A DNA stretch of 58,085 nucleotides from an uncultured Bacilli bacterium (lineage in GTDB: Bacteria; Bacillota_I; Bacilli_A; RF39; UBA660). Positions 6,820-58,085 of this stretch are shown here, piece by piece. Position 1 is the first letter of the stretch. Every line of letters starts with the position of its first letter. Both the position numbers and the translations under genes were made by a program. The DNA lies in NCBI GenBank assembly GCA_934085875.1, contig CAKOHQ010000001.1:1-58085 (forward strand), written 5' to 3'. The notes under the pieces were generated by a model. The model searched no databases, was not told where the DNA came from, and saw only the letters and a list, made by a program, of their open reading frames with translations.

Positions 6820-7602
6820 ATGTTTATAGAAGCTGTTATAATAATTATATTAATATTTATTGTGCTTGAGGTTACAGGAAGTATTAGTTTAAATAAATTT
6901 ATTAAAGATAATCAAGAATATTTTAAAACATTAAAAGAAAGTGATTATGAATTTTTATTAAAAGCAAGATATGGAGATGGAATAGATTCTGATAGATTAT
7001 TTTCTGGAAGAATTAGAGATGGTGCTATTGTAATGGTACTTTGTATCTTCTTATTTATAAATGATTTAGATTATACTAAAGTTATTGTTTCAATTATTGC
7101 AGGTTTTGGAATGTTTAAATTGAGTTATATTAAGTTGAAAAGTTATTATAAAGCTCATTTACATGAAATTGATTCTATGCTTCCATATTATTTAAAAAGT
7201 TTAGAAATATTAATACAACATTATACTGTTCCTGTTGCAATTGGTAAAAGTATAGAAGATGCTCCTAAGATATTTCAAGAAGGTTTAAAAGAGTTGTTAC
7301 AGAAAATTAATGCAGGTGATTCTAGTATTACACCTTATATGGATTTTGCTAAAGAGTATCCTGTTCGAGATTCTATGAGAATGATGAGACTTTTATATAG
7401 ATTGGGTCTTGGAAGTCAAGAAAGAAAGCAAGAACAATTACTTCAATTTTCTAGATCTATTTCTAGTTTACAACAAAAGGCAAGAGAGACAAGATATAAA
7501 AATAGACTTGAAAAAATGGAAAGTAAAACAATGGTTATGTTGGTTTGTACTGGTGTTGGTGTAATGTTATTATTAATTATTTCAATAATGAATATGTTTT
7601 AG
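6820..7602 (+). CDS. TadC-like polytopic membrane protein (T2SS-F-type platform)
   Basis: Same topology class as the preceding gene. The soluble middle segment contains IDSMLPYYLKSLEILIQ. Assigned from operon position. Confidence 0.5.
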   Translation: MFIEAVIIIILIFIVLEVTGSISLNKFIKDNQEYFKTLKESDYEFLLKARYGDGIDSDRLFSGRIRDGAIVMVLCIFLFINDLDYTKVIVSIIAGFGMFKLSYIKLKSYYKAHLHEIDSMLPYYLKSLEILIQHYTVPVAIGKSIEDAPKIFQEGLKELLQKINAGDSSITPYMDFAKEYPVRDSMRMMRLLYRLGLGSQERKQEQLLQFSRSISSLQQKARETRYKNRLEKMESKTMVMLVCTGVGVMLLLIISIMNMF

Positions 7603-15639: not shown

Positions 15640-15936
15640 TTGTCATTGGTTGTATTTTCAATAATTATATATGATTATATGAAATTTAGAGTATTTTATT
15701 CAGTAATATTTTGTATATTTTTAGCACCTGATATGTATAGATTAATAAAAAATAAAAAGAATTTAGTTTATTTTGAATTAACTGATGAAAGACAAATATA
15801 TAATAAATTGAATATATATCCTGAAGTAAATTCTTTGTTGAGTGTTTCAATTTATGTTAAAAAAATTAAAATAAAAAAACAAACATTTAATAAGTATGTA
15901 AGAAATGGATTTACTGCTGTTGAATGGGGTGCGTAA
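15640..15936 (+). CDS. Doubtful small membrane protein
   Basis: TTG start without a clear RBS and AT-rich sequence. Kept only because a bidirectional terminator follows at 15950-15986. Confidence 0.25.
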   Translation: MSLVVFSIIIYDYMKFRVFYSVIFCIFLAPDMYRLIKNKKNLVYFELTDERQIYNKLNIYPEVNSLLSVSIYVKKIKIKKQTFNKYVRNGFTAVEWGA

Positions 15937-15949
15937 TTCATTAAATATA

Positions 15950-15986
15950 AAAACTACATATTGTGCTGCAAGTATATGTAGTTTTT
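15950..15986. terminator. Bidirectional hairpin terminator
   Basis: AACTACATAT-N11-ATATGTAGTT flanked by an A-run and a T-run. Confidence 0.55.
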
Positions 15987-16119
15987 GTATGTTTAATTAA
16001 TTTATAATAAGTTACTTTATTCGACAAATCATTTAAATATTTTGGTGTAATATATATAACCAGAACATTTATTGTTTATGTCCTGCCTTTTGTATTTAAG
16101 TATGAAGGGAGTAATAGTT

Positions 16120-16209
16120 ATGAAGTTTTATTCATGTATTATGAAAATATTGGATAGAATAATTATTATATTTTTTATTAAAATCTTATATAGTTTTATA
16201 AAAGACTAA
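16120..16209 (+). CDS. 29-aa hydrophobic peptide (type I toxin candidate, family A copy 1)
   Basis: SD GAAGGGAG lies 8 nt upstream of the ATG. Product MKFYSCIMKILDRIIIIFFIKILYSFIKD. A codon-for-codon homologue occurs at 57724-57813. The ORF sits inside a transcript whose ends are complementary (16058-16090 versus 16275-16306). Confidence 0.5.
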   Translation: MKFYSCIMKILDRIIIIFFIKILYSFIKD

Positions 16210-16227
16210 TTTAATGGGGGTTTTGGT

Positions 16228-16304
16228 AAACAAAAAAGACATAGTACTAAAAAGTACAAATGTCACACCACAAGGTAGGACATTTAATAATAAATGTTCT
16301 ACTT
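16228..16304 (-). ncRNA. About 75-nt cis-antisense sRNA (antitoxin candidate, family A copy 1)
   Basis: Minus-strand TTGACA (16339-16334) - 17 nt - TACAAT (16316-16311). 5' hairpin GUAGAACAUUU/AAAUGUCCUAC. Terminator hairpin at 16264-16238 plus a U6 tract. Confidence 0.6.
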
Positions 16305-16445
16305 AACTGAATTGTACCATTATATTATGTTAGTGTCAAATATATATTTTTTAATTTTTAGTAAACTAATTTTTAATAATAAAATATCTTTAAATCTTTT
16401 AATTTATTATATAATATGATAAAATTTTCTTAGTAAGGTGATGTT

Positions 16446-27036: not shown

Positions 27037-27057
27037 AGTACAATTTGTACTTTTTTT
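27037..27057 (+). terminator. Terminator after tRNA-Arg
   Basis: AGTACA-ATT-TGTACT hairpin plus T7. Confidence 0.55.
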
Positions 27058-27506
27058 ACATATTTGTTTGTGTTTGTTACATAGTATATAATGTATTATA
27101 TTTAATTTTGTATTTTATAATTTATGCTTTGTATATTAAAAATACTTGTATTTTAAATATAATATGATATAATTTAATTGTGATAAGTTTACTTGTCAAA
27201 TTAAAAAGAGATATTTAATCCAGCAAAATTAGGTGTCTCCTTAGTATTTTGTTTTTTGTAAGTTAGCACCTACATATGATGAGTAGGTGTTATTTTTTAA
27301 TCCTTGAAGTTCATTAAACGTTCTAATACTATCAATATTAATATATTTTTTTACATATTTATTTACATTTGTTACATAATATATAATGTATTGTATTTAA
27401 TTTTGTATTTTAAATTTATGCTTTATATATTAAAAATACTTGTATTTTAAATACAATATGATATAATTTAGTTGTGATAAGTTTACTTGTCAAATTAAAA
27501 AGAGAT
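27051..27506 (+). repeat. Two direct copies of about 160 bp (27051-27212 and 27346-27506), period about 295 bp
   Basis: Near-identical strings TTTTTTTACATATTT...TACTTGTATTTTAAATA.AATATGATATAATTTA.TTGTGATAAGTTTACTTGTCAAATTAAAAAGAGATA. Confidence 0.9.
27180..27298 (+). ncRNA. sRNA, family B copy 1 (partner ORF truncated)
   Basis: TTGTAT (27146) - 16 nt - TGaTATAAT (27165-27173). Terminator CACCTAC-N8-GTAGGTG plus a U-run (27268-27298). Contains GGUGUCUCCUUAG (an anti-SD-like UCUCC). Confidence 0.55.
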
Positions 27507-27578
27507 ACAATTTTGGCTTAGATGTATCTCCACAATGTGGGTTGCACCTAATTATATAGGTGCTTTTATTTTTATTTT
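27474..27578 (+). ncRNA. sRNA, family B copy 2 (antitoxin candidate)
   Basis: TTGTAT (27440) - 16 nt - TGaTATAAT (27459-27467). Terminator GCACCTA-ATTATA-TAGGTGC plus a U-run, shared with the convergent ORF transcript. Confidence 0.55.
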
Positions 27579-27652
27579 AATATGATTGCAAGGACTACAA
27601 TGATGAAAGGAATTAATGAAAGTATTAATACAACTGCCATTAAGTATTCCAT
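27572..27652 (-). CDS. 26-aa hydrophobic peptide (Fst-like type I toxin candidate, family B)
   Basis: Product MEYLMAVVLILSLIPFIIVVLAIILK. Transcription unit TTGTAA-17-TATAAT (27782-27754). The 5' UTR segment ACCUCC can pair with the SD GAGGAGGU. The stop lies 8 nt from the bidirectional terminator. No SD sits directly before this ATG; the strong SD serves an overlapping frame starting at 27686. Confidence 0.45.
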   Translation of the reverse strand: MEYLMAVVLILSLIPFIIVVLAIILK

Positions 27653-33129: not shown

Positions 33130-33254
33130 GTGATAGGAAGTTCTATCATATAAATATTTTTTGGACACAAAAAGAGTTGCTTAATATTCGTCGTTAAGTA
33201 CTTTCAGTCCAATTTGTTCTGTGGGTACCTAAATGAGTTTGGTACCTGTTTTTT
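33130..33254 (+). ncRNA. sRNA, family B copy 3 (antitoxin candidate)
   Basis: TTGATT (33098) - 16 nt - TGtTATAAT (33117-33125). The 5' end GUGAUAGG is as in the 27-kb copies. Terminator GGTACC-N11-GGTACC plus U6. A second promoter, TTGACT-17-TATAAT, lies at 33050-33078. Confidence 0.55.
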
Positions 33255-33318
33255 AATCCTTGTTGAAAAGTATTTTAAGTAGTATTAATATCACTACTAA
33301 GATTACTAAGTAATCCAT
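33253..33318 (-). CDS. 21-aa hydrophobic peptide (type I toxin candidate, family B)
   Basis: Product MDYLVILVVILILLKILFNKD. GGAAGGA lies 7 nt upstream of the ATG. Transcription unit TTGTAT-17-TATAAT (33429-33401). The stop overlaps the shared terminator. Confidence 0.45.
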   Translation of the reverse strand: MDYLVILVVILILLKILFNKD

Positions 33319-33449
33319 TTATTATTCCTTCCATAGGACCACCTCCTTCCACAAAAGTTGAGAGAGGTTGAGAGTACCTAACTTAAGCAACTCAATTGGT
33401 ATTATAATATATATTATATAATAATACAACGTTAAAATAGAGGTGTTTT

Positions 33450-42865: not shown

Positions 42866-42970
42866 ATGAACCGCGGAGGATGCTGTGCTAATAATGGTGG
42901 CGTTTCTGCTGCTGCATTCATATTAGTACTATTTATTTTATTAATTATCATAGTAGGGGCTTTCATTTAA
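42866..42970 (+). CDS. YjcZ-family tiny TM peptide (34 aa)
   Basis: AAGGAGGGG RBS. Product MNRGGCCANNGGVSAAAFILVLFILLIIIVGAFI. Not in the ORF track. Confidence 0.65.
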   Translation: MNRGGCCANNGGVSAAAFILVLFILLIIIVGAFI

Positions 42971-42983
42971 GGAGGGATTATAT

Positions 42984-43112
42984 ATGAATAAATCAACTTG
43001 TACAAGTGCAAGCACTAGATGCAATGATAATAATAGATTTGGTGATTTTTTCATCATATTAGTATTATTTATATTACTTGCAATAATCGTTAGTGCTGTA
43101 TTTACTTATTAG
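42984..43112 (+). CDS. YjcZ-family tiny TM peptide (42 aa)
   Basis: AAGGAGGG RBS. Product MNKSTCTSASTRCNDNNRFGDFFIILVLFILLAIIVSAVFTY. Terminator at 43114-43137. Confidence 0.65.
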   Translation: MNKSTCTSASTRCNDNNRFGDFFIILVLFILLAIIVSAVFTY

Positions 43113-57609: not shown

Positions 57610-57638
57610 ATATGTCAACAAAATATGACATATTTTTT
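57610..57638. terminator. Bidirectional terminator after rluD
   Basis: ATATGTCA-N8-TGACATAT hairpin flanked by A and T runs. Confidence 0.6.
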
Positions 57639-57723
57639 AAATGCTTTATAGTAGTATATGTAACCAGAACATTTTATATTCTGTTAGTGTTTACCCAACT
57701 ATATATATAGAAGGGATGCATAC

Positions 57724-57813
57724 TTTAAATTTAAAAGTTTTATTATTAAAATACTTGATAGTATAATTTTATTATACATATTGAAAATAATTTTCTTTCT
57801 CCTACAACAATAG
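57724..57813 (+). pseudogene. Start-less homologue of the 29-aa family A peptide
   Basis: Ungapped 30-codon alignment with 16120-16209 ending at the same stop (FKFKSFIIKILDSIILLYILKIIFFLLQQ*). TTT replaces the ATG, and the nearest ATG (57716) is out of frame. Confidence 0.35.
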
Positions 57814-57859
57814 GGAGTTTTGGTTATAACAATTAGACACTAGTGTTTTATATTTGTGC

Positions 57860-57937
57860 AAAAAAAAGCACACGTATTAAAAATACGAGTGTCTACACAA
57901 CATGGGTAGACATTCTAGATATAAGAATGTTCTACTT
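57860..57937 (-). ncRNA. About 78-nt cis-antisense sRNA (family A copy 2)
   Basis: Minus-strand TTGACA (57972-57967) - 17 nt - TAAAAT (57949-57944). 5' hairpin GUAGAACAUUCU/AGAAUGUCUAC. Terminator CACUCGUAU-UUUUA-AUACGUGUG plus U8. Confidence 0.6.
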
Positions 57938-58085
57938 AAATTAATTTTAACATCACTATAATGATGTGTCAATTAGAAAATTCACATAAATAATGATTGA
58001 AATATATAATTTTTTATTTTATAATTTTATTAGAGTAGTAATCTACTTGAAAATAATATATAAGATAGGAGAGAGTCAATTATGA

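What the first reader, a model, noticed from the sequence alone, without database searches (positions are those of the whole stretch)
16020..16340. Hidden convergent module in an apparently empty 510-nt gap: a 29-aa hydrophobic ORF plus a complete antisense sRNA gene (type I TA-like, family A copy 1)
Four observations support this. (i) On the + strand, SD GAAGGGAG (16104-16111) lies 8 nt before ATG 16120 and opens MKFYSCIMKILDRIIIIFFIKILYSFIKD, a single hydrophobic helix with charged ends. (ii) Segment 16058-16090 (AACCAGAACATTTATTGTTTATGTCCTGCC) is the imperfect reverse complement of 16275-16306 (GGTAGGACATTTAATAATAAATGTTCTACTT). A + transcript could therefore close its 5' end onto its 3' end over more than 20 bp, as hok-type toxin mRNAs do. 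A candidate extended -10 (TGgTGTAAT, 16043-16051) places a start at about 16058. (iii) On the - strand, TTGACA - 17 nt - TACAAT (16339-16311) is followed after about 75 nt by a hairpin (16264-16238) and a U6 tract. This defines a stand-alone sRNA fully complementary to the 3' UTR of the ORF. (iv) The same architecture recurs at 57.6-57.97 kb. Nothing here is in the ORF track.
Basis: partly seen in the sequence, partly recalled or inferred. Interest (0 to 1): 0.75.

Follow-up and report, generated by a model that had tools for sequence, protein, structure and literature searches.

The report
Hidden small toxin–antisense RNA gene pair
An apparently empty gap between housekeeping genes of an uncultured gut bacterium holds a conserved 29-amino-acid membrane-peptide gene facing a small antisense RNA gene; it has the layout of a type I toxin–antitoxin pair but matches no described family, and toxicity is untested.

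Summary
Comparison with nine distinct related copies supports three of them as selected features.

- **The ORF codes for protein.** It keeps its frame and 29-aa length. Second codon positions are conserved, serine codons switch between families, and the one internal indel is in frame.
- **The + RNA closes 5' onto 3'.** The helix is about 30 bp and holds in all copies, with seven compensatory pairs. Its G·U wobbles only work on the + strand RNA.
- **The − strand carries a roughly 72-nt sRNA gene.** It has an invariant TTGACA-17-TGn-extended −10 promoter, a 5' hairpin and a terminator, with six compensatory pairs.

The sRNA overlaps only the 3' UTR, exactly the 3' arm of the closing helix. No Rfam, Pfam, NCBIfam or PADLOC family matches, and the peptide is absent from two large protein libraries.

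Copies are dispersed between housekeeping genes, at least five per genome, in three uncultured gut Bacilli genomes and one metagenome contig. Three copies carry ORF lesions while keeping the sRNA. One is window copy 2, where ATG has become TTT in at least eight assemblies.

Best reading: a new type I toxin–antitoxin-like family. Toxicity and transcripts are untested. Interest is moderate.

The parts
16021..16053 (+). Copy 1: putative promoter of the peptide mRNA. It has a -35-like TCGACA at 16021-16026 and a -10-like TGTAAT at 16046-16051 or TAATAT at 16048-16053.
   Evidence: The GACA and GTA(A/G)TATAT blocks are conserved in the 9-copy alignment. Spacing is irregular and this copy was not picked up by the promoter scan. 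The transcription start at about 16058 is inferred.
16062..16091 (+). Copy 1: 5' arm of the long-distance 5'-3' helix. Its inner end, CCUGCCUUUU, also serves as the anti-SD.
16086..16111 (+). Copy 1: SD-sequestering hairpin, in which CCUUUUGUAU pairs with GUAUGAAGGG. The SD GAAGGGAG is at 16104-16111.
   Evidence: It appears in the MFE fold. RNAalifold predicts pairs 34-57 to 43-48, with UA/CG and AU/UA exchanges.
16120..16209 (+). Copy 1: 29-codon ORF plus stop, MKFYSCIMKILDRIIIIFFIKILYSFIKD. This is the putative membrane toxin.
   Evidence: Frame and length are conserved in the intact homologues. Codon-position bias is [13, 4-5, 15-17] and dN/dS is 0.2-0.5. GRAVY is 1.18 and net charge is +3.
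16220..16227 (+). Copy 1: conserved GUUUUGGU box just 3' of the stop codon. It is complementary to the 5' end ACCAGAAC and may be an alternative partner for it.
   Evidence: RNAalifold predicts pairs 2-176 to 9-169. They are kept in 8-9 of 9 sequences, but only through one-sided changes. The pairing forms in the 3'-masked fold of copy 1. Its role is unproven.
16238..16264 (.). Copy 1: hairpin that acts as the sRNA terminator on the - strand, where it is followed by U6 (A6 at 16232-16237 on the + strand). On the mRNA it forms the complementary stem-loop.
   Evidence: Helix 2 of the covariance-model alignment has 5 compensatory pairs.
16270..16299 (+). Copy 1: 3' arm of the long-distance helix. 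It is also the complement of the sRNA 5' hairpin.
16232..16305 (-). Copy 1: antisense sRNA gene of about 72 nt, made of a 5' hairpin, a spacer and a terminator. It overlaps only the 3' UTR.
   Evidence: The ends are inferred from the promoter and the U-tract.
16311..16339 (-). Copy 1: sRNA promoter, TTGACA-17-TACAAT with a TG extension.
   Evidence: It scores 11/12. TTGACA is invariant in all copies.
57625..57652 (+). Copy 2: putative mRNA promoter, ATGACA-16-TATAGT.
   Evidence: It scores 10/12.
57666..57697 (+). Copy 2: 5' arm of the long-distance helix.
57724..57813 (+). Copy 2: ORF remnant in the same frame, FKFKSFIIKILDSIILLYILKIIFFLLQQ*, with TTT in place of ATG. The SD is at 57710-57716.
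   Evidence: The same allele is present in at least 8 independent assemblies.
57817..57824 (+). Copy 2: conserved GUUUUGGU box.
57902..57933 (+). Copy 2: 3' arm of the long-distance helix.
57859..57939 (-). Copy 2: antisense sRNA gene. The terminator stem is at 57868-57894 and is followed by U8.
   Evidence: The covariance model hits it at 42.7 bits, E = 8e-6.
57944..57972 (-). Copy 2: sRNA promoter, TTGACA-17-TAAAAT with a TG extension.
   Evidence: It scores 11/12.

Best explanation
The region is a type I toxin-antitoxin-like module from a previously undescribed family.

Anatomy, supported by sequence and comparison:
- A weakly promoted + strand mRNA of about 250 nt encodes a 29-aa hydrophobic cationic peptide.
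- Its SD can be locked in a hairpin by an upstream anti-SD.
- Its 5' end is closed onto its 3' end by a helix of about 30 bp.
- A strongly promoted convergent sRNA of about 72 nt is perfectly complementary to the mRNA 3' UTR, including the whole 3' arm of that helix. It does not reach the ORF.

Mechanism, inferred:
- The sRNA is made in excess and pairs with the 3' UTR. Contact probably starts through the complementary terminator loops.
- The roughly 72-bp duplex would expose the mRNA to RNase III and strip the protection of its 5' end.
- The freed 5' arm, which contains the anti-SD, would then clamp the SD fully and block translation.
- When the sRNA decays or is outnumbered, the full-length mRNA re-forms the long-range helix. 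The helix competes for the anti-SD, so a fraction of molecules expose the SD and make the peptide.
- The peptide is presumed to insert in the membrane and arrest growth.
For: Coding:
- Six of the eleven copies recovered have ORF lengths that are exact multiples of three with no frameshift.
- Differences between the A1 and A2 types by codon position are [13, 4-5, 15-17], and dN/dS is 0.2-0.5.
- Serine codons switch between AGT and TCT or TCA.
- L009 has an in-frame 6-nt deletion.

Long-distance helix:
- Duplex energy is -29 to -40 kcal/mol in every copy.
- Cognate and within-type arm pairs average -34 kcal/mol, against -20.7 for cross-type pairs.
- 98.1% of cells are paired, with 7 doubly changed pairs and 7 wobble-only pairs. 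Slid controls give 42-53%.

sRNA:
- TTGACA-17-TGn-extended -10 promoters are present in all copies.
- 97.8% of cells are paired, with 6 doubly changed pairs.

SD control:
- The SD hairpin shows covariation.
- Predicted P(SD unpaired) is 0.22-0.77 in the full-length RNA and 0.01-0.34 when the 3' 80 nt are masked or removed. The drop occurs in 5 of 6 copies.

Habit typical of such modules:
- At least 5 dispersed copies per genome lie between housekeeping genes.
- Three of the eleven copies have ORF lesions with the sRNA intact: TTT in window copy 2, an ATT start in L009 and a frameshift in L024.

The anatomy matches published hallmarks of the class (PMC8594479). Action at a distance by an antitoxin bound to the 3' end has a precedent in SR4 (PMC3834814). 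A long-range pairing that opens an SD hairpin has a precedent in timP (PMC13000454).
Against: - No transcript, toxicity or antitoxin data exist.
- No match to any toxin or antitoxin model in Pfam, NCBIfam, PADLOC or Rfam.
- The peptide has charged residues inside its hydrophobic stretch (K9, D12, R13, K21), and its longest uncharged run is only 7-13 aa.
- The + strand promoter is irregular, and no clear intrinsic terminator ends the mRNA.
- The covariation rests on effectively three lineages (A1, A2, L009), and the helix alignment was fitted by hand.
- The SD-switch step rests only on thermodynamic prediction, and one copy (L015) shows no change.
Confidence: 0.7

Rival explanations
1. The peptide is a non-toxic small membrane protein, for example a regulator or accessory subunit. 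Its mRNA is simply tuned by a cis-antisense RNA, and there is no toxin-antitoxin logic.
For: The coding signature and the sRNA are equally compatible with this reading. The peptide matches no toxin family. It carries several internal charges.
Against: The module is multi-copy and dispersed, with no conserved neighbouring genes. There are several layers of translational lock-down: an SD hairpin, 5'-3' closure, and a much stronger antisense promoter. ORFs repeatedly decay while the sRNA is kept. These are habits of type I TA loci rather than of housekeeping small proteins.
Confidence: 0.17
2. The element is RNA-only. The - strand sRNA, the structured + RNA or both are the functional products, and the ORF is not translated.
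For: The AT-rich sequence readily yields I/K/F/L-rich ORFs. Copy 2 persists, fixed, without a start codon while its RNA features stay intact. The ORF region also contains predicted helices.
Against: Second codon positions are conserved and third positions are free. Window copy 2 and L008 differ at 4 sites, all at third positions, apart from the start codon. Serine codon family switches and an in-frame indel are present, whereas the UTRs carry indels that are not multiples of three. An SD lies at the proper distance in every copy.
Confidence: 0.07
3. The element is a miniature mobile repeat (MITE-like). Its terminal inverted repeats and promoter-like boxes are incidental.
For: Units of about 320-360 bp, each with a roughly 30-bp inverted repeat, are dispersed at many intergenic sites. 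The copy 1 locus is structurally polymorphic between assemblies.
Against: The inverted repeat is internal: homology extends about 40 nt beyond each arm to the two -35 boxes. The arms co-vary instead of being conserved, and they tolerate G·U wobbles that would be A·C mismatches on the other strand or in DNA. A coding ORF sits inside. No hit was found in viral contigs.
Confidence: 0.04

Closest known systems
bsrG/SR4 (and TxpA/RatA, bsrE/SR5) of Bacillus subtilis
   Same: These are Gram-positive systems with convergent genes, in which the antitoxin RNA overlaps the 3' end of the toxin mRNA. SR4 first contacts its target through its terminator loop. Its binding at the 3' end lengthens a distant SD-sequestering helix from 4 to 8 bp and also promotes decay (PMC3834814). 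This is the same action at a distance proposed here.
   Different: There is no sequence similarity. In those families the overlap reaches the ORF (PMC8594479), whereas here it stops at least 23 nt after the stop codon. Here the target is one arm of a 30-bp 5'-3' closing helix, which the sources read here (PMC3834814, PMC8594479) do not describe for bsrG. The peptide here is 29 aa.
hok/Sok and aapA/IsoA
   Same: Both have a 5'-3' long-distance interaction in the full-length toxin mRNA and extra SD-sequestering hairpins. AapA has a 90-nt ORF, an mRNA of about 225 nt and several chromosomal copies (PMC6733600).
   Different: In those systems the antisense RNA lies inside the mRNA, at the 5' UTR or over the ORF. 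The long-range helix itself hides the SD, and trimming the 3' end activates translation. Here the antisense RNA covers the 3' arm, the anti-SD lies upstream of the SD, and removing the 3' arm is predicted to close the SD. The hosts are Gram-negative, and there is no Pfam HOK_GEF match.
par (Fst/RNA II) and SprA1/SprA1as
   Same: These share convergent promoters, an antisense overlap confined to the 3' UTR, a 5' stem-loop that sequesters the SD, a sequestered 5' end (the upstream helix), and a toxin of about 30 aa (PMC7472228, PMC8594479).
   Different: There is no shared bidirectional terminator. There are no DRa/DRb repeats giving complementarity at the start codon: pairing of the sRNA with the 5' UTR and ORF is no better than for shuffled sRNA. 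The peptide has no PXXXG motif and no acidic or basic C-terminal tail. There is no Pfam or Rfam match.
timPR of enterobacteria
   Same: A long-range interaction destabilises the hairpin that sequesters the ribosome-binding site, and an alternative pairing locks the mRNA off, without any processing (PMC13000454). This is the same logic as the switch proposed here.
   Different: The host and sequences are unrelated, and timP also needs a pseudoknot in its 5' UTR. The abstract read here does not describe an antitoxin capturing the long-range partner; the rest of that paper was not read.

Membership tests
Type I toxin-antitoxin systems (class level; hallmarks as in PMC8594479) | A short ORF (under 60 aa) encoding a hydrophobic peptide, shown to be a real coding sequence | tested here: met
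   The 29-aa ORF keeps its frame and length across copies, shows codon-position bias and has dN/dS of 0.2-0.5. GRAVY is 1.2-1.6 and the best 19-aa Kyte-Doolittle window scores 1.95-2.73.
Type I toxin-antitoxin systems (class level; hallmarks as in PMC8594479) | An antisense RNA gene with its own promoter and terminator, complementary to the toxin mRNA | tested here: met
   This holds at sequence level only. The promoter scores 11/12 with a TG extension in both window copies and is invariant across homologues. The two-hairpin structure plus U-tract has 6 compensatory pairs. Expression is not testable here.
Type I toxin-antitoxin systems (class level; hallmarks as in PMC8594479) | The SD is sequestered by an anti-SD hairpin, by a 5'-3' long-distance interaction, or by both | tested here: met
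Type I toxin-antitoxin systems (class level; hallmarks as in PMC8594479) | The peptide is toxic when over-expressed and the RNA neutralises it | not testable with these tools
   This needs expression experiments.
Fst/RNA II (par) superfamily (features from PMC7472228) | A bidirectional intrinsic terminator shared by both RNAs | tested here: not met
   The hairpin at 16238-16264 has a U-run only on the - strand. On the + strand it is followed by ACACCACAAGG.
Fst/RNA II (par) superfamily (features from PMC7472228) | Direct repeats DRa/DRb that give a second region of complementarity over the toxin translation start | tested here: not met
   The best sRNA duplex with the 5' UTR and ORF is -22 to -27 kcal/mol, equal to the shuffled-sRNA mean of -22 to -26.
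Fst/RNA II (par) superfamily (features from PMC7472228) | A toxin with a PXXXG motif in the transmembrane domain and a charged C-terminal tail; Pfam Fst model | tested here: not met
   No variant contains Pro or Gly. There is no Pfam hit at E <= 10.
Fst/RNA II (par) superfamily (features from PMC7472228) | An intramolecular 5' stem-loop over the SD, and an upstream helix that sequesters the 5' end | tested here: inconclusive
   An SD hairpin is present. The 5' end is sequestered, but by a 30-bp helix with the 3' end. The shorter ACCAGAAC:GUUUUGGU pairing is supported only by one-sided changes.
hok/Sok and aapA/IsoA | A 5'-3' long-distance interaction in the full-length mRNA | tested here: met
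hok/Sok and aapA/IsoA | An antisense RNA encoded inside the mRNA, at the 5' UTR or ORF, and activation by 3' trimming | tested here: not met
   The sRNA lies over the 3' UTR only, at 16232-16305. Folding with the 3' end truncated lowers predicted SD accessibility rather than raising it. That result is a prediction only.
Rfam antitoxin RNA families (13 type I families, per PMC8594479) | A covariance-model score at or above the gathering threshold | tested here: not met
   Only two tRNAs pass in the window. The best sub-threshold hits over the two modules have E >= 0.7 and scores far below gathering.
MITE-like mobile repeat | Inverted repeats at the very ends of the unit, conserved in sequence, with no coding capacity | tested here: not met
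   The arms are internal, co-vary and include strand-specific wobbles. A coding ORF lies inside the unit. Target-site duplications were not systematically searched.

The most novel reading that the evidence does not exclude
The antitoxin works by capturing one arm of a helix. The 5'-3' closing helix is not the lock, as it is in hok and aapA. Instead it competes with the anti-SD and keeps a fraction of full-length mRNA translatable. By pairing with the 3' arm, the sRNA releases the 5' arm, whose inner end then clamps the SD about 170 nt away. One RNA duplex at the 3' end would therefore both switch translation off allosterically and mark the mRNA for decay. This would occur in a toxin family confined to a little-known lineage of uncultured gut Bacilli.
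Probability: 0.3. Interest if true: 0.65.

Novelty: new variant of a known kind. Interest (0 to 1): 0.5.

Why it matters
Type I toxin-antitoxin loci are almost invisible to annotation. No gene was called here in any assembly, and the peptide is absent from libraries of 5.8 and 1.84 billion proteins.

If this one is real, it adds a family from uncultured, very AT-rich human-gut Bacilli.

It combines two regulatory designs that usually occur apart: the Gram-positive antisense RNA overlapping the 3' end, and the long 5'-3' mRNA closure known from hok and aapA. The antitoxin is aimed at the closing helix itself. That gives a compact, testable example of RNA-to-RNA allostery, and a natural part for engineered RNA switches.

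It also shows toxin decay with antitoxin retention, fixed in a natural population (copy 2).

Tried and rejected
- **Rfam.** At gathering threshold on the whole window, and at E <= 10 on both modules, only tRNAs and chance-level hits appeared.
- **Protein family libraries.** Pfam, NCBIfam and PADLOC gave nothing for three peptide variants and the 45-aa TTG-extended ORF.
- **Protein libraries.** The word-indexed search refuses queries under 40 aa. The 45-aa extended ORF found no candidate and no hit among 1.84 billion representatives.
- **Phage association.** The three viral-contig matches are chance hits inside coding regions.
- **Trans pairing of the sRNA with the SD or start region, as in Fst and SprA1.** It is no better than for shuffled sRNA.
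- **More diverged copies near the known ones.** nhmmer over all fetched loci found none.
- **Leader or riboswitch for the downstream gene.** Rejected, because the neighbouring genes differ in identity and strand between copies.
- **Alternative ORFs.** The 30-aa + ORF at 16214-16306 and the 26-aa - ORF at 16186-16266 are not preserved in the A2 type, which has no ATG and a 32-nt insertion.
- **Full-length mRNA covariance model.** It was not attempted, because the model would be about 250 positions. A hand-made N-padded alignment of the two arms was used instead.
- **Limits of the collection scans.** The two large scans required exact conserved motifs, so the taxonomic range found is a lower bound.

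Full report
**1.

The window is about 23% G+C with a very strong positive GC skew. The 509-nt gap at 15937-16445 has no called gene in public assemblies of the same organism. Within it:
- GAAGGGAG lies at 16104-16111, 8 nt before ATG 16120. The ORF ends at TAA 16207-16209 and encodes MKFYSCIMKILDRIIIIFFIKILYSFIKD.
- 16062-16091 pairs with about 16270-16299 at -36.6 kcal/mol, against -9.3 +/- 2.7 for shuffled arms.
- The 253-nt + RNA folds with z = -6.7.
- On the - strand, TTGACA-17-TACAAT at 16339-16311 scores 11/12 and has a TG extension. A roughly 72-nt unit follows, made of a 5' hairpin, a spacer and a hairpin plus U6.
- Only six promoter matches of this strength exist in the 58-kb window on both strands. 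Two of them belong to this module and its second copy.
- The second copy, aligned over 57620-57978, is 77% identical. The homology runs exactly from one -35 box to the other.

**2. Relatives**

One scan of species-representative genomes, using a pattern drawn from the sRNA promoter and 5' hairpin, gave 14 loci. Eight are true modules, and all lie in three MAGs titled 'uncultured Bacilli bacterium'. One genome has five copies, one has two and one has one. The other six loci are chance matches in unrelated genomes.

A metagenome scan added one more copy (L024). A viral scan gave only chance hits in coding DNA. nhmmer found no further diverged copies in the fetched DNA.

The copies fall into three sequence types:
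- A1: window copy 1, L013, L014, L017, L020, L021 and L024.
- A2: window copy 2, L008 and L015.
- L009, the most divergent copy.

They sit at unrelated intergenic sites next to genes for a GDPD-family protein, a pseudouridine synthase, a uracil-DNA glycosylase, a SpoU methylase, a topoisomerase subunit (identified by eye only) and a RhuM/Fic protein. The module is therefore chromosomal, multi-copy and dispersed.

**3. The ORF is a gene**
- Intact copies keep the frame and the 29-codon length. A1 reads MKFYS[CFY]I[MLI]KILDRIIIIFFIKILYSF[IF]KD, and A2 reads MKFK[SN]FIIKIL[DN]SIILLYILKIIFF[LF]LQQ.
- L009 is two codons shorter through an in-frame 6-nt deletion.
- A1 and A2 differ at 13, 4-5 and 15-17 sites in codon positions 1, 2 and 3. 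dN/dS is 0.2-0.5.
- Serine is encoded by AGT in some copies and by TCT or TCA in others.
- The UTRs, in contrast, carry 1-, 7- and 32-nt indels.
- The peptide is very hydrophobic, with GRAVY 1.2-1.6 and a best 19-residue window of 1.95-2.73. Net charge is +2 to +3, with conserved K9, D12 and, in A1 and A2, K21.
- It matches nothing in Pfam, NCBIfam or PADLOC. It is absent from two very large protein libraries, as expected for an ORF that gene callers skip.

**4. Three copies are damaged in the ORF only**
- Window copy 2 has TTT where its closest relatives L008 and L015 have ATG, and it has no in-frame start. Its four other differences from L008 are all synonymous. The same allele is present in at least eight independent gut assemblies, so it is not an error.
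- L009 starts with ATT.
- L024 has a 1-nt deletion that changes the C-terminus.

All three keep the sRNA promoter and fold. Losing the toxin while keeping the antitoxin is what a toxic gene predicts. It is also compatible with a dispensable ORF.

**5. RNA structure**

*sRNA.* A covariance model built from the A1 sRNAs recovers the A2 and L009 sRNAs. On that alignment 97.8% of cells pair and six pairs changed on both sides. Slid controls pair at 25-50%.

*Closing helix.* Duplex energies are -29 to -40 kcal/mol in every copy. Arms from the same type average -34 kcal/mol, and arms from different types average -20.7. On a hand-made alignment of the two arms:
- 98.1% of cells pair.
- Seven pairs changed on both sides.
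- Seven more vary only through G·U wobbles.
- Slid controls pair at 42-53%.

The wobbles would be A·C mismatches on the other strand or in DNA. The selected object is therefore a helix in the + strand RNA, not a DNA inverted repeat.

Two caveats apply. There are effectively three lineages, and both alignments were fitted to the structure.

*SD hairpin and box.* A hairpin that pairs an upstream CC(U)-rich anti-SD with the SD is predicted in all types, with UA/CG and AU/UA exchanges. A conserved GUUUUGGU box just after the stop codon can pair with the 5' end ACCAGAAC. Only one-sided changes support that pairing, so its role is open.

**6. How it most likely works**

The sRNA has no complementarity to the 5' UTR or ORF beyond chance. 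It must therefore act through the 3' UTR overlap, which covers the terminator-complement hairpin and the entire 3' arm of the closing helix.

The inner end of the 5' arm (GCCUUUU, ACCC or ACCUCUUU) is also the anti-SD. The 3' arm and the SD therefore compete for it in all three types.

Partition-function folding predicts the following values for P(SD unpaired):

| State of the mRNA | P(SD unpaired) |
|---|---|
| Full-length | 0.22-0.77 |
| 3' 80 nt masked (sRNA bound) or removed | 0.01-0.34 |

The drop occurs in five of six copies, and reaches 0.01 in A1.

My proposal, which is inference:
- sRNA binding probably starts between the complementary terminator loops, as shown for SR4 and bsrG (PMC3834814).
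- Binding removes the 3' arm and lets the anti-SD clamp the SD.
- It also unprotects the 5' end and creates a long duplex for RNase III.
- Free full-length mRNA would be the partly translatable form.

This is the reverse of hok and aapA, where the long-range helix is the lock and 3' trimming activates translation (PMC6733600). It resembles timP, where a long-range pairing opens the SD hairpin (PMC13000454).

**7. Comparison with known systems**

The module has the class hallmarks listed for type I systems: a small hydrophobic ORF, SD/anti-SD elements, 5'-3' interaction and an antisense RNA on the 3' side, as in Gram-positive families (PMC8594479). It fails the defining tests for three groups:
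- Fst/par: no bidirectional terminator, no DRa/DRb complementarity and no PXXXG motif (PMC7472228).
- hok and aapA: the antisense RNA is in a different position.
- Every Rfam antitoxin family.

In the way it works it is closest to bsrG/SR4.

I file it as a new family, a new variant of a known kind. It is not a member of any named family.

**8. Rival explanations**
- A non-toxic small membrane protein under antisense control cannot be excluded (0.17).
- An RNA-only element is disfavoured by the codon evidence (0.07).
- A MITE-like repeat is disfavoured by internal, co-varying, strand-specific arms and by the ORF (0.04).

**9. Verdict**

Copy 2 is start-less, and the helix may not act as it does in hok.

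Interest is moderate (0.5). The find is solid, new at family level and has a testable mechanistic twist. However, new type I families are reported regularly, and nothing here has been shown experimentally.

Noticed in passing
window 27050-27580: Two tandem units of about 294 nt, 89-95% identical. Each has a strong - strand TTGACA promoter-like site (27199-27171 and 27493-27465), a + strand TTGTAT-16-TATAAT-like site, and a + strand hairpin plus U-run (about 27268-27300 and 27541-27575). They may be tandem small-RNA genes or another antisense pair. Rfam gives no hit at gathering threshold.
   Followed up: partly
window 42866-42970 and 42984-43112 (+): Two adjacent tiny ORFs of 34 and 42 aa, each with a strong SD. 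They have Cys/Gly/Asn-rich N-termini and hydrophobic tails (…AAAFILVLFILLIIIVGAFI and …FFIILVLFILLAIIVSAVFTY). From memory they resemble YjcZ-type small sporulation proteins; this was not tested.
   Followed up: no
window 33253-33334 (-): A very strong SD (GGAAGGAGGTGG) precedes a 19-aa ORF, MEGIINGLLSNLSSDINTT. An overlapping 21-aa hydrophobic ORF, MDYLVILVVILILLKILFNKD, is also present, followed by a hairpin (ggtacc…ggtacc). This lies in a 576-nt gap. Function is unknown.
   Followed up: no
L002 1-900; L014 3893-4069; window 15640-15936: The left flank of copy 1 is polymorphic between assemblies. L002 carries an extra partial copy of the sRNA-promoter end and right flank (160 nt, 98% identical), plus about 280 nt of unrelated sequence upstream of the module. 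L014 lacks the 98-aa ORF at 15640-15936, which has no Pfam match. This suggests recombination between copies or an insertion.
   Followed up: partly
L008 about 6885-6900 and L015 (A2-type copies): A three-codon mini-ORF, ATG TAT ACA TGA, starts right at the SD. Its stop overlaps the main start codon (ATGA). In window copy 2 the same ATG opens a 16-codon out-of-frame ORF, MHTLNLKVLLLKYLIV. Whether this has any coupling role, as mok does for hok, is unknown.
   Followed up: no
window 16220-16227 and 57817-57824, and all homologues: A G-rich GGGGGUUUUGGU or GGGAGUUUUGGU box between the stop codon and the sRNA terminator is among the best conserved non-coding blocks. Pairing with the mRNA 5' end is possible but not demonstrated by covariation.
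   Followed up: partly
whole window: GC skew is +0.05 to +0.62 in every 2-kb bin, and nearly all long ORFs lie on the + strand. This is an unusually strong strand bias. The sRNA genes are among the few - strand transcription units.
   Followed up: no
L017 4304-5128 (-): The ORF begins MIVYLDLVFLINLIMDFYILSG. From memory it looks like the sporulation protease SpoIIGA, which hints that the host is a spore-former rather than a Mollicutes-like lineage. This was not tested.
   Followed up: no
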